From the NCBI GenBank assembly GCA_965287045.1, contig OZ336882.1, forward strand, positions 26,536,001 through 26,600,000: a DNA stretch of 64,000 nt, given 5' to 3'. Position numbers: made by a program. Source of the stretch: Carcharhinus amblyrhynchos. Taxonomy: Eukaryota. Numbering within the stretch: position 1 is the stretch's first letter; each line of letters starts with the position of its first letter. This document shows, in pieces, positions 46,801-49,800 of this stretch.

Positions 46801-49800
46801 GTCAGCTGTGGCTGCGATATGGACCCTGGTGTCCCAGTCAATAGTACAGAGCGCTAGTGTACTGCATCACCTGAAGAAACAGATAACTGCGTTTGCAGCT
46901 TCTGTATTTTTAGATTTCTTTCAACAAATAAAATCTCAATACGTTTCCTAAAATTACAGACTGGAAAAGCTGAGCTTTTCACCTTTTTTGTATGAAACAA
47001 GTGGTGGTTAAACAAGGGGAATGGTCAGTGCAGCATACACAGCTGATCAACAAAGTAATATATACACTTGGAACAACCATAGTGAGCAGAAACTAAGAAG
47101 GATGAGAAAGACATAAGCAACTTTGAGACAAATTCACCCCTGTGGGCATACCTCTCCACATTAATCAGGCAGTAGTATTGATGGGGATCAGGGAGCAGTC
47201 ATAGTGATGAAATGTTATTTACTGCATGCAGTGTCAAAGGTGGGAAAGAAGCAAAGAAATAAACAGCTGAGAAGAGGGGACATCAAGGAATAGGAGCAGC
47301 TTATTTCTGCTATGAAATGGGATTTTCAATGATAACAAGTTGGAGTCATTATTAATAGACAGCAGGAAAGGATGATTTTGCTACATCAAAATCAGAAGTT
47401 GTGACAGCTGCTGCCTCCACTAATTTGGGGACAGAGATGTACAGTACAAAATATTTCAACATAGGACCGAGGATGCCAAAATATTAAGTATCTGCAAAGG
47501 TTTGGGAGCAGGTTGCAGATTGGCATGACTTTACTGATTAAATTGGTGTTCTGTTTTTCCTTATGACCACAACCTGGTCATATCACATTTCTGTTAGCTA
47601 TGGTACAGTTGATGTGGCTGGTAATTCTTGTAAATTCCTTGCTGCGGATAACAAAGTGTCTCTTCACATCTGGAGTTTGATGAAGTGACCTTAATTGTTG
47701 GATATAGTCCAAACATTTGGTGACTTAAAGATTCTCCAAACTGCTTTGTCATTTGCAATGATTATCAGGTACAATGAATGCAGGACAATGACTGTCTAAT
47801 CTTGGATAGTCCTTTAATTAAGACAGTATAAAACTATTAATAATATTGTATCAAGCTACTTACATTCCTGAAGATGTAGTTGAATAAATGTTTGATTTGC
47901 AGGGGAATGTTGACGAAGAGAGTCCGTCTGCTGGGGAATAGTGTTTCATGGCGGACTAGAAATATGTACGTAACACCGCTGTTACTGAAGAAGTTAGCAA
48001 TTGTTACACTATTTTGGCAGAAAAGATCACAGGCAAAAAGAAACAGACAATGAATGGAATCTTACCACTGTTCACATTGATTGGATTTTCCCATCCTGCC
48101 GCAGTAAACGGACATTTGGCTGGTCGCCAAATTCTCCCATCTCGCTGCAGCGGAACTGTGGCACGAACAGGCGGTAAGATTGCGTCCAATGAGTGACTTG
48201 ATCAGATGTGGCGAGAGGAGAGGAGAAAGAGAAATGACACAATTTAGTTAATGGTAAGATATTGTGGAGATGCTGGTGTTGAACTGGGGTGGGCACAGTA
48301 AGAAGTCTCTTCCAATACCAGGTTAAAGTCTAACAGGTTTATTTGGTATCACAAGCTTTTGGAGCGTTGCTCCTTCATGAGGTGAGTGAATCACCTGATG
48401 AAGGAACAGGGCTCCAAAAGTTTGTGATACCAAATAAATCTGCTGGACTTTAACCTGGCATTGTGAGGCTTCTTACAATGGTAAGATGGGAATGGGGAGA
48501 ATAAGAGAAGTTTGCAACACCATTCAAAAAAAACTAAAGAAGTAGAAAACATGCAATGTGTTTGAGTGGGATGTTGATCCACCAGGAGGAACCCTTCAGT
48601 TGTAGGCAATAAAATAAAACAAGACTTACTCCAAATTATAAATCAAAGGAAAATGTTTAATAATGAAACTTCATTACTCTAACTCTTGAGGCCACGCCCT
48701 GGGGTATTCCAAGCTCCCATAAACCCTGTCAGCTGACCACCACATCATTTTGTCATTGGTTACATAGTTTACTGGGTCAGCTGACCTTAACAGCATGTTA
48801 CCATTGGGCACATTACAACAGATCCAATGTTATAATTGGTTTCAATCAAACACGGTGATTTTCATTGTAACTTAATTGCAGTGTGAACGTAAGCCTGCTT
48901 GTGACTAATAAATAAACTTTACTTTTAACTTGGGACATTGTGGACATTGGAGTGATAAACTGAAAGGGGTAGTGAAAAGATGAGCGTAATCTGAGAAGAC
49001 CAGAGATAGGAGCAGAACAACAAACATGCTTGTGGACTGATAATGTTGATGGAGGCACCAAGGTTCAAAACTCAGTGGGGTACTGGGAAAGCATGTAAAA
49101 AATCAATCACAAGGAGGAGGGAGTCAACAAATAAAAGGAGAGTTGCCTCCCTATAGCAAGGGAAGAAGAGAAAGGACCTGTGATTGGAGAATCTGGGTCA
49201 TTATACTGGCTGATCCCAAAGTTTCCACCCGGATGAGGGAGAACAGGGTGGGAGGAAGAAGCAGGGGACCTCACTCAATGGCACGCTACACGAACCATGG
49301 CTGCAGTGCCTGAGTTGGGGGTTTGGGAGATCCTGGCCGAGACTCAGAGGATGAACAGGCCAGGGATGAGAATCCCGGTGGGAGAAAAAAGCAGCAGGAG
49401 GTGCAGACAGAGGCAAAGGAGATAGAGAAAGAATGGGGCCTTCAACTGGATGAATGCAGCTGTTTAGCTGTAAAATTCTTTAAAGACACCAACACCTTGG
49501 CCTGCAGGCAGACTGCAAAGGAGCATTGGTTTTGACCTTCTTTACAACATGGAGCCGGGGCAGAGCCACATTCAGAAACAGAGGCATTTGGAATGTTTTC
49601 TGCACCACATTAAGGGCAGTGGTGAATGGTTCAAGCAATACACAATCTCAAGGAAGTTATGGCTGTCTGGTGAATTGATGGTGGTGCTGTTGGTGCTGTT
49701 GGCTATGATGCGGCACGGTGGCACAATGGCGAGCACTGCTGCCTCACAGCTCTAGGATACCAGGTTCAATTCTGGTCTTGGGTCAATGTCTGTGTGGAGC

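What the first reader, a model, noticed from the sequence alone, without database searches (positions are those of the whole stretch)
48258..48477. ~200-bp palindromic, ribozyme-only Penelope mini-elements (also 58139-58332)
Seen: two independent loci consist only of two inverted ~60-90-bp pLTR termini that fold back just upstream of the hammerhead, so each strand carries one motif. One arm has the ~38-nt tail and the other ends at cttcttac or its equivalent. No coding sequence is present. Known: inverted pLTR plus tail is a Penelope integration structure. Inference: a fold-back point immediately 5' of the ribozyme in both copies suggests either a distinct non-autonomous hairpin (retrozyme-like) family or reverse-transcriptase template switching induced by the ribozyme fold. 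Transcripts would be long hairpins and possible Dicer/ADAR substrates.
Basis: partly seen in the sequence, partly recalled or inferred. Interest (0 to 1): 0.65.

Follow-up and report, generated by a model that had tools for sequence, protein, structure and literature searches.

The report
Head-to-head Penelope retrotransposon stubs
Two ~200-bp palindromic repeats in this shark-like sequence are old, dead stubs of a Penelope-like retrotransposon, and their shared fold-back point most likely marks where the element's RNA begins.

Summary
Both loci (48261-48476 and 58140-58334) are fold-backs made of two inverted copies of the last 60-130 bp of a Penelope-like element (PLE). Each has flanking target-site duplications of 11 and 13 bp and a 37-38-nt tail on one arm only. 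Each arm carries a minimal hammerhead motif, with no coding sequence.

This is the known PLE integration structure (inverted 5'-truncated copy plus a one-sided tail) in its smallest form.

- **Not a retrozyme:** there is one motif per strand, and both catalytic boxes survive in 1 of the 4 arms.
- **No sign of a hairpin family copied as a unit:** quartet sites group the two arms of each element together, 3 to 0 to 0.
- **The useful extra:** both minis fold back at the same base, 6-7 nt upstream of the CUGAUGA box. A third, non-inverted copy is truncated within about 8 nt of that point.
- **Why that base matters:** it lies 30-31 nt downstream of a TATA-like 8-mer in 4 of 4 longer copies.

My best reading is two run-off cDNAs, primed on both target strands and joined head-to-head at the RNA 5' end. 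That reading rests on 6 insertions in one 64-kb window and on no RNA data.

The parts
48250..48260 (.). Locus 1, left copy of the 11-bp target-site duplication
   Evidence: Perfect direct repeat with 48477-48487
48261..48297 (-). Locus 1, 37-nt tail of the left (inverted) arm
   Evidence: Aligns with the tails of 4 other arms; absent from the right arm
48298..48388 (-). Locus 1, left arm body from the CTTCTTAC-type end to position -6/-7. Minimal hammerhead motif with G5 and G12 changed.
   Evidence: Base 48388 can be read as position -7 of this arm or as one extra base 5' of the right arm.
48389..48476 (+). Locus 1, right arm from position -6 to the CTTCTTAC end, no tail. First box intact, G12 changed.
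48477..48487 (.). Locus 1, right copy of the target-site duplication
58127..58139 (.). Locus 2, left copy of the 13-bp target-site duplication (12 of 13 identical; the difference is at a CpG)
58140..58177 (-). Locus 2, 38-nt tail of the left (inverted) arm
58178..58257 (-). Locus 2, left arm body. Both hammerhead boxes intact. The native helix I 5' strand is missing or interrupted.
58258..58272 (.). Locus 2, 15-nt centre. Either filler of unclear origin, or the left arm continuing to -7 across a 9-nt insertion.
   Evidence: MAFFT reads a 9-nt insertion relative to locus 1. In one search the resemblance of the 16-nt stretch 58257-58272 (these 15 nt plus one arm base) to helix II is not above chance: 395 of 2000 shuffles.
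58273..58334 (+). Locus 2, right arm from position -6 to 2 nt past the CTTCTTAC-type end, no tail. A 28-column gap removes the GAAA box.
58335..58347 (.). Locus 2, right copy of the target-site duplication
34732..35207 (-). Same family: inverted arm (no tail) of a long fold-back insertion
   Evidence: 86% identical to the reverse complement of 35554-36041
35208..36081 (+). Same family: direct arm of the long fold-back. It has a frameshifted endonuclease-region ORF piece, a TATA-like box, the hammerhead motif and a 38-nt tail (36044-36081).
11846..12126 (+). Same family: solo copy with tail, 5' end about 162 nt upstream of the hammerhead
43920..44186 (+). Same family: solo copy without tail, 5' end at or a few nt left of 43920
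23699..23802 (-). Same family: solo, non-inverted copy with tail, 5'-truncated at the CUGAUGA box (position -1 to +2). It shares 3 nt with its 12-bp target-site duplication (23810-23799 and 23698-23687).

Best explanation
Each locus is one old, dead-on-arrival integration of a Penelope-like element.

**Proposed steps**
1. The element's endonuclease nicked both target strands 11-13 bp apart.
2. Each nick primed reverse transcription at one of the two neighbouring internal start sites: the CTTCTTAC site, or the end of the tail about 38 nt further on.
3. Both cDNAs ran off the 5' end of a short promoter-proximal stretch of PLE RNA, about 6 nt upstream of the hammerhead.
4. The two run-off ends were joined head-to-head, by template jump or end joining.

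**What that produces**
A palindrome containing only the 5'-terminal ~90-125 nt of the transcript, tailed on one side. It has no upstream promoter and no ORF.

**Shown**
The inverted PLE arms, the target-site duplications, the one-sided tail, the common fold-back base, the sister relationship of the two arms, and the decay of the ribozyme cores.

**Inferred**
Priming on both strands in vivo, that position -6 is the RNA 5' end or transcription start, and the way the ends were joined.
For: **1. PLE identity**
- nhmmer finds 9 arms from 6 insertions of one family and nothing else at E<=10.
- The long copy carries an ORF piece matching residues 457-567 of a 643-aa shark protein with an RVT_1 domain, at 74% identity.
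- The motif shows the published traits of PLE minimal hammerheads: a base between positions 9 and 10.1, a G10.1-C11.1 pair, and a palindromic GC at 15.2-16.2 (compared with PMC4209133, main text parts 1-2 read).

**2. One-sided tail**
- 3 of 3 fold-backs have exactly one tailed arm.

**3. Both strands**
- The Anolis PLE protein cleaves and extends both target strands in vitro (PMC11167929).

**4. Common end**
- The locus 1 arms end at -7/-6 and -6. The locus 2 right arm starts at -6, and its left arm reaches -7 if a 9-nt insertion is allowed.
- The solo copy at 23802 is truncated at -1 to +2. So 5 of 9 arm ends, from 3 of 6 insertions, fall within about 10 nt.

**5. Promoter-like spacing**
- A TA-rich 8-mer starts 30-31 nt upstream of -6 in 4 of 4 long copies, and -6 is an A in 3 of 4. 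That this is the canonical TATA-to-start spacing is recalled general knowledge.

**6. Centre of the palindrome**
- Locus 1 has at most one unpaired base at its centre. That fits the joining of two molecules better than a snap-back hairpin.

**7. Arms born together**
- Quartet sites score 3:0:0 for within-element pairing.
- The two arms of the long fold-back share a 7-8-nt insertion that the other 7 arms lack.

**8. Ribozyme cleavage not involved**
- 0 of 9 arms end at the predicted hammerhead cleavage site. This agrees with the in-vitro finding that cleavage is not needed for insertion (PMC11167929).
Against: - **No RNA data.** The transcription start is inferred only from a TATA-like motif and its spacing. 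One of the four long copies has C, not A, at -6.
- **D. virilis differs.** There the mapped start lies 46 nt upstream of a 75-nt intron whose 3' end abuts helix I, so it is not directly at the ribozyme (PMC2377424 and PMC4209133, passages read).
- **Small sample.** There are only 6 insertions, and the two arms of one mini are not independent.
- **Raw identities do not show the arms as nearest neighbours in locus 1.** Locus 1 left versus right is 87%, while locus 1 left versus locus 2 left is 89%.
- **Weak quartet signal.** One of the three quartet sites (column 76) sits beside the gap in the locus 2 right arm. Four unrelated arm pairs also share one exclusive variant each.
- **Ambiguous centre in locus 2.** Without the 9-nt insertion its left arm ends at -1.
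- **A second cluster is unexplained.** Two solo copies share a different 5' end about 162 nt upstream, and this model does not account for it.
- **Tail pattern could be chance.** Three of three mixed tail/no-tail pairs would arise about 1 time in 10 by my own rough estimate.
Confidence: 0.55

Rival explanations
1. Template switching provoked by the ribozyme region. The reverse transcriptase pauses at the hammerhead, or at the small palindrome formed around the CUGAUGA box. It then snaps back or jumps, so the fold or sequence sets the fold-back point rather than the end of the RNA.
For: - The breakpoints sit at the 5' edge of the motif in both minis.
- Under the gap-free reading, the locus 2 left arm ends at -1, inside a 3-bp/5-nt-loop palindrome around the box. 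It is followed by 15 nt whose best match is 9 of 10 to helix II of another copy.
- Self-priming at palindromic junctions has been proposed for PLEs (PMC3846280, discussion passage read).
Against: - The enzyme moves 3' to 5' on the RNA. It has already copied helices III, II and the 5' strand of helix I before stopping, so the fold is not a barrier ahead of it.
- Locus 1 has at most one unpaired base at the centre, too few for an intramolecular snap-back loop.
- The match of the filler to helix II is not above chance: 395 of 2000 shuffles reach it.
- The solo copy at 23802 stops at the same place without any inversion.
Confidence: 0.2
2. A distinct non-autonomous hairpin family: one ancestral fold-back that is transcribed and copied as a unit.
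For: - Both minis have the same architecture and, if a 9-nt insertion is allowed, the same junction.
- The tail is on the left (minus-sense) arm in both.
- Locus 1 left and locus 2 left are 89% identical, the highest value for locus 1 left.
Against: - Quartet sites: same-side grouping 0, within-element grouping 3, over 54 columns.
- No exclusive variant is shared by the two left arms or by the two right arms.
- Locus 1 right and locus 2 right are only 78% identical.
- The arms start at -6, so the unit lacks the TATA-like box. A unit transcript would need exact outer ends to reproduce the structure.
- The long fold-back shows the same architecture arising at other breakpoints.
- Only 2 copies were available.
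Confidence: 0.08
3. Secondary deletion. Each mini began as a longer fold-back like 34732-36081 and later lost its centre.
For: - A longer fold-back of the same family lies in the window.
- Long palindromes are prone to central deletion (recalled general knowledge).
- The locus 2 right arm does carry an internal gap of 28 alignment columns.
Against: - A deletion would have to remove both inner parts symmetrically to the same base, twice over, in two independent loci.
- The solo copy at 23802 ends at the same place next to its target-site duplication, so that end dates from integration.
Confidence: 0.1
4. A MITE or fold-back DNA transposon with terminal inverted repeats, unrelated to reverse transcription.
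For: Terminal inverted repeats plus target-site duplications and small size.
Against: - Target-site duplications vary in length: 11, 13 and 12 bp in three insertions of the family.
- The arms are the 3' end of an element that encodes a reverse transcriptase.
- The two ends differ by a 37-38-nt tail.
- Solo one-armed copies with their own target-site duplications exist.
Confidence: 0.02

Closest known systems
Canonical EN+ Penelope-like element insertion: partial tandem with an adjacent inverted 5'-truncated copy and a 30-40-bp tail at one end (PMC8557442 Fig. 2 legend and text; PMC3846280; passages read)
   Same: - Inverted head-to-head arms.
- Tail on one arm only.
- Short target-site duplications of variable length.
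- Hammerhead motif in the terminal repeat.
   Different: - Nothing lies between the arms: no ORF and no direct pLTR pair.
- Each arm is shorter than a full pLTR, starting at -6 rather than about -162.
- In both loci the arms end at one defined base.
Dual minimal hammerheads 100-700 bp apart on opposite strands in Schistosoma mansoni, noted in passing (PMC4209133, main text read)
   Same: Two PLE-type minimal hammerhead motifs close together on opposite strands, taken there to be truncated PLEs.
   Different: - The main text I read gives no anatomy of junctions, tails or target-site duplications.
- Here the two first boxes are only ~15-25 bp apart, in a different phylum.
Both-strand cleavage and extension, and two internal reverse-transcription start sites, of the Anolis Poseidon element in vitro (PMC11167929, main text read)
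   Same: Predicts two cDNAs of the same sense primed on opposite strands. The outer ends would fall at either of two sites that bracket the tail.
   Different: That is an in-vitro result with a defined template. Joining of the two products and run-off at a natural RNA 5' end were not described there.
Twin-priming inversions of human L1
   Same: The second target strand primes reverse transcription, giving an inverted 5' part.
   Different: L1 twin priming inverts a different, neighbouring part of one RNA. Here the same segment is present twice.
Non-LTR retrozymes (PMC7229834, passages; bioRxiv 10.64898/2026.07.22.740005, abstract and section 14)
   Same: Short, non-coding, pLTR-related sequences with a hammerhead, dependent on PLEs.
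   Different: Retrozymes are tandem direct repeats with canonical type I ribozymes, processed to circular RNA. These are inverted, carry one decayed minimal motif per strand, and cannot release a unit-length RNA.

Membership tests
EN+ Penelope-like element (insertion product) | Belongs to an element whose single ORF has a reverse transcriptase | tested here: met
   The arms are the 3' end of the copy at 35208-36081. Its ORF piece (35183-35665) hits 10 shark proteins at E<=0.001 among 160 candidates. The best is E 1.2e-55 at 84% identity; 5 of the 10 carry precomputed PF00078. RVT_1 was confirmed above cut-off in 2 of 3 rescanned proteins.
EN+ Penelope-like element (insertion product) | C-terminal GIY-YIG endonuclease | tested here: inconclusive
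   The two window ORF pieces give no Pfam hit at E<=1. One homologue (P0001) has a GIY-YIG match at 20.2 bits, below the 22.6 cut-off. That the residue pattern looks like a PLE endonuclease is my recollection only.
EN+ Penelope-like element (insertion product) | Minimal type I hammerhead in the terminal repeat: extra base between positions 9 and 10.1, G10.1-C11.1 pair, palindromic 15.2-16.2 | tested here: met
   Seen by inspection in the best-kept arms, set against the traits listed in PMC4209133. CUGANGA is kept in 7 of 9 arms, GAAA in 3 of 9, both in 2 of 9. No Rfam hammerhead model matches. Self-cleavage is not testable here.
EN+ Penelope-like element (insertion product) | [quoted passage not shown] | tested here: met
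   37-38 nt. Present on exactly one arm in 3 of 3 fold-backs and on 2 of 3 solo copies.
EN+ Penelope-like element (insertion product) | Adjacent inverted 5'-truncated copy, with short variable target-site duplications | tested here: met
   Duplications of 11, 13 and 12 bp.
Non-LTR retrozyme | Two or more direct (tandem) repeats with a hammerhead on the same strand | tested here: not met
   The arms are inverted, with one motif per strand.
Non-LTR retrozyme | Self-cleaving canonical type I ribozyme, with a circular RNA product | not testable with these tools
   There are no RNA data. Both core boxes survive in 1 of the 4 mini arms, and that arm lacks an intact native helix I 5' strand.
MITE / fold-back DNA transposon | Target-site duplication of fixed length and symmetric termini | tested here: not met
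   Duplications of 11 and 13 bp. The termini differ by a 37-38-nt tail.
L1-type twin-priming inversion | Inverted and direct parts are different, adjoining segments of one RNA | tested here: not met
   Both arms are the same segment, from -6 to the start site.

The most novel reading that the evidence does not exclude
The mini fold-backs are 'strong-stop' twin cDNAs. PLE transcripts of this family would start about 6 nt upstream of the hammerhead. A PLE ribonucleoprotein would prime on both target strands from the promoter-proximal start sites, and the two run-off products would be joined end to end.

If so, three things follow:
- Such stubs are a routine by-product of PLE activity and could account for much of the large population of orphan and paired minimal hammerheads in animal genomes.
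- They give an in-vivo footprint of symmetric target-primed reverse transcription.
- Their junctions map PLE transcription starts in any genome without RNA data.
Probability: 0.4. Interest if true: 0.55.

Novelty: new member of a known kind. Interest (0 to 1): 0.35.

Why it matters
How Penelope-like elements integrate is still poorly understood. Priming on both strands and internal initiation have been shown only in vitro, for one lizard element.

Fold-backs that contain nothing but two run-off arms are the simplest natural products of that reaction. Their outer ends report the two initiation sites, and their centre reports where the template ended.

If the shared centre proves general, these stubs offer a cheap genome-only read-out of PLE transcription starts and of symmetric priming. 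They would also explain many orphan hammerhead motifs.

If it does not prove general, they are ordinary truncated insertions. Nothing here points to a function for the host.

Tried and rejected
**Rfam**
- The whole window at gathering score gave 0 matches.
- Around locus 1 at E<=10 there were 15 weak matches and no hammerhead. The top one is a plant miRNA-precursor model at 64.5 bits against a gathering score of 150, which is a long-hairpin artefact.
- Locus 2 gave 1 match and the best-kept arm 4 matches, with no hammerhead in either.
- So the ribozyme call rests on inspection against a published descriptor.

**Pfam**
- The two window ORF pieces gave no family.

**More copies**
- nhmmer with a profile of all arms found only the 9 arms already known.
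- The 14-mer scans gave 23 and 16 matches with up to 3 mismatches, against about 6-7 expected. Most of the extra ones are chance-level matches with 3 mismatches.

**Origin of the locus 2 filler**
- A snap-back copy of helix II was considered. The match is not above chance, at 395 of 2000 shuffles.

**Sequence relationships**
- Raw pairwise identities do not resolve the relationship of the arms.
- Exclusive shared variants are few: 7 of 36 arm pairs have any.

**Literature**
- Three searches for a description of pLTR-only PLE fold-backs or of shark PLE hammerheads found none beyond the passing remark in PMC4209133.
- The paper on dimeric PLE hammerheads in RNA Biology (2017) is not held and appears only in reference lists.

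- Collecting genomic copies.
- Reading supplementary figures, which were closed. Those of PMC4209133 and PMC11167929 may show vertebrate motifs, paired motifs and RNA read ends.

**Other points**
The two frames of the broken ORF were searched separately and never joined.
- Nothing in the window was taken for human. The nearest proteins are from sharks, and the window contains no N.
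Full report
**What is there**

Locus 1 is a 216-bp element (48261-48476).
- Its inverted arms are 88% complementary over 73 nt, with further matching outer arms.
- A perfect 11-bp direct repeat flanks it exactly.

Locus 2 is a 195-bp element (58140-58334).
- Its arms are 94% and 90% complementary in two blocks.
- A 13-bp direct repeat flanks it, with 12 of 13 bases identical; the one difference is at a CpG.

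As single strands the two loci fold into long hairpins.
- The energies are -137.2 and -101.9 kcal/mol, with z-scores of -18.2 and -10.9.
- None of 200 shuffles does as well in either case.

The window has no N.

**What family it belongs to**

BLAST and a profile search find nine arms of one repeat family in the window, from six insertions, and nothing more at E<=10.
- The four arms of the two minis.
- Three solo copies: 11846-12126, about 43920-44186, and 23699-23802.
- One long fold-back (34732-36081). Its inverted arm (34732-35207) matches the reverse complement of 35554-36041 at 86%.

The direct arm of the long fold-back carries a broken ORF piece.
- The stop-to-stop frame 35183-35665 hits ten shark proteins among 160 candidates. 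The best is E 1.2e-55 at 84% identity.
- It aligns to residues 457-567 of a 643-residue protein whose RVT_1 domain lies at 183-309.
- A GIY-YIG match appears in one homologue only and below the curated cut-off (20.2 against 22.6 bits). The window pieces themselves give no Pfam hit.
- So the link to a reverse transcriptase is shown, and the endonuclease identity is only likely.
- The two frames of the broken ORF were searched separately and were not joined.

**The ribozyme motif**

In the orientation that contains CUGAUGA, every arm has the same order of parts: the box, one extra A, a 5-bp helix II, GAAA in the better-kept copies, and a GC dinucleotide followed by U and the cleavage-site base.

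The extra base, the G10.1-C11.1 pair and the palindromic 15.2-16.2 positions are the traits listed for PLE minimal hammerheads (PMC4209133, main text parts 1-2 read). Rfam does not recognise this minimal form in any of four searches.

The motifs are decayed.
- CUGANGA survives in 7 of 9 arms, GAAA in 3 of 9, and both in 2 of 9.
- Four arms have the first G of GAAA changed at what was a CpG.
- Among the four mini arms only the locus 2 left arm keeps both boxes, and its native helix I 5' strand is missing or interrupted.
- 'One motif per strand' therefore holds by descent, not as a working ribozyme.

**Ends of the arms**

Outer ends:
- Five of nine arms carry a 37-38-nt tail after the CTTCTTAC-type end. 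Four stop at that end or within 3 nt of it.
- Each of the three fold-backs has exactly one tailed arm.
- The tail is the stretch between two adjacent internal reverse-transcription start sites seen in vitro (PMC11167929, main text read).

Inner ends, counted from the C of CUGAUGA:
- In locus 1 the left arm is homologous to the long copies up to -7 (or -6), and the right arm from -6. At most one base (48388) is left unassigned at the centre.
- In locus 2 the right arm starts exactly at -6.
- The locus 2 left arm ends at -1, followed by 15 nt of unclear origin. Alternatively, as MAFFT reads it, it continues to -7 across a 9-nt insertion, which makes the two centres collinear.
- The solo copy at 23802 is truncated at -1 to +2 and shares 3 nt with its 12-bp target-site duplication.
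- The other four ends lie at about -162 (two solo copies), about -400 and about -750.
- So 5 of 9 ends, from 3 of 6 insertions, fall within about 10 nt. No end lies at the predicted ribozyme cleavage site.

**Family or repeated event**

Over the 54 columns where all four mini arms have a base, parsimony-informative sites group the two arms of one element three times. They group same-side arms zero times and crosswise arms zero times.
- One of the three sites is next to the gap in the locus 2 right arm, so two are solid.
- The arms of the long fold-back share a 7-8-nt insertion that the other seven arms lack.

Against this reading:
- Raw identities do not make the locus 1 arms nearest neighbours: 87% against 89% for locus 1 left versus locus 2 left.
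- Exclusive shared variants are few. The locus 2 pair has 2 and the locus 1 pair has 1, but four unrelated pairs also have 1.

On balance the arms of each element were made together at each insertion, and the same junction was reached twice. That is a hot spot, not a palindrome copied as a unit. Two copies cannot settle it.

**Why that point**

In 4 of 4 long copies a TA-rich 8-mer begins 30-31 nt upstream of -6, and -6 is an A in 3 of 4, in an initiator-like context. The canonical spacing and the initiator pattern are recalled general knowledge.

Promoter motifs inside pLTRs have been proposed for rotifer PLEs (PMC3846280), and an internal promoter was mapped in D. virilis. There the start lies 46 nt upstream of a 75-nt intron that ends at helix I, so it is not identical to what I propose here (PMC2377424 and PMC4209133, passages read).

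[quoted passage not shown] Each arm would be a run-off cDNA from one of the two start sites to that end.

The Anolis element cleaves and extends both target strands in vitro (PMC11167929). That would give two cDNAs of the same sense on opposite strands. Joining them end to end yields exactly this palindrome, with at most one unpaired base at the centre.

That centre argues against an intramolecular snap-back, which needs a loop. It also argues against the ribozyme fold as a roadblock, because the whole motif had been copied before the stop.

The product lacks the TATA-like box and any ORF, so it is dead on arrival. The 12-15% divergence between the arms and the CpG decay show that both loci are old.

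**Rivals**

The rivals are a fold- or palindrome-provoked switch, a unit-copied hairpin family, central deletion of a longer fold-back, and a DNA transposon. They are weighed in their own sections of this report.
The hairpins are strong, but there is no evidence of transcription.

**Known or new**

The architecture is known. Paired minimal hammerheads on opposite strands 100-700 bp apart were noted in passing for a flatworm (PMC4209133).

Three literature searches found no description of pLTR-only fold-backs, of a common junction at a putative start site, or of shark PLE hammerheads. Supplements were closed and one relevant paper is not held.

I file this as a new member of a known kind. The modestly novel reading, strong-stop twin cDNAs, needs a genome-wide census and 5'-end RNA data.

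**Limits**

- Six insertions in one window.
- No genome, RNA or small-RNA data.
- The closed collections and supplements stayed unchecked.

Noticed in passing
window 11846 and about 43914-43920: The two solo copies that extend upstream of the hammerhead begin at nearly the same family position, about 162 nt upstream (profile positions 1 and 10 or less). This is a possible second preferred 5' end, or the true pLTR boundary. The run-off model does not explain it.
   Followed up: partly
window 34732-36081: A long fold-back of the same family. The inverted arm is 476 bp without a tail; the direct arm is 874 bp with a tail. The arms abut at 35207/35208 inside the ORF. The endonuclease-region reading frame is split between two frames (35183-35665 and 35413-35676). 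A probable 8-9-bp target-site duplication differs at a CpG.
   Followed up: partly
window 48324-48452: The locus 1 hairpin scores E 3.8e-13 against a plant miRNA-precursor model (MIR5380) and E 2.2e-06 against mir-559, both far below gathering score. This is an artefact of any long near-perfect hairpin and a warning for miRNA annotation pipelines.
   Followed up: yes
all nine arms: The first G of the GAAA box is changed to A in 4 of 9 arms, at a former CpG. The locus 2 target-site duplication also differs at a CpG. The pattern fits methylation-driven decay of neutral sequence.
   Followed up: partly
window 14957-16779, 19915-20325, 37851-38366, 45493-45990, 53618-54124: Several stop-to-stop frames of 136-171 aa look like fragments of LINE-type reverse transcriptases (my impression from the translations; not searched).
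   Followed up: no
window 38970-40018: Three overlapping long open frames (163-312 aa) rich in S, L and P suggest a low-complexity tandem repeat rather than a gene. Not examined.
   Followed up: no
window 58240-58246 and 58261-58267: A 7-nt direct repeat lies inside locus 2, spaced 21 nt apart. It may mark the slippage that produced the 9-nt insertion at the centre.
   Followed up: no
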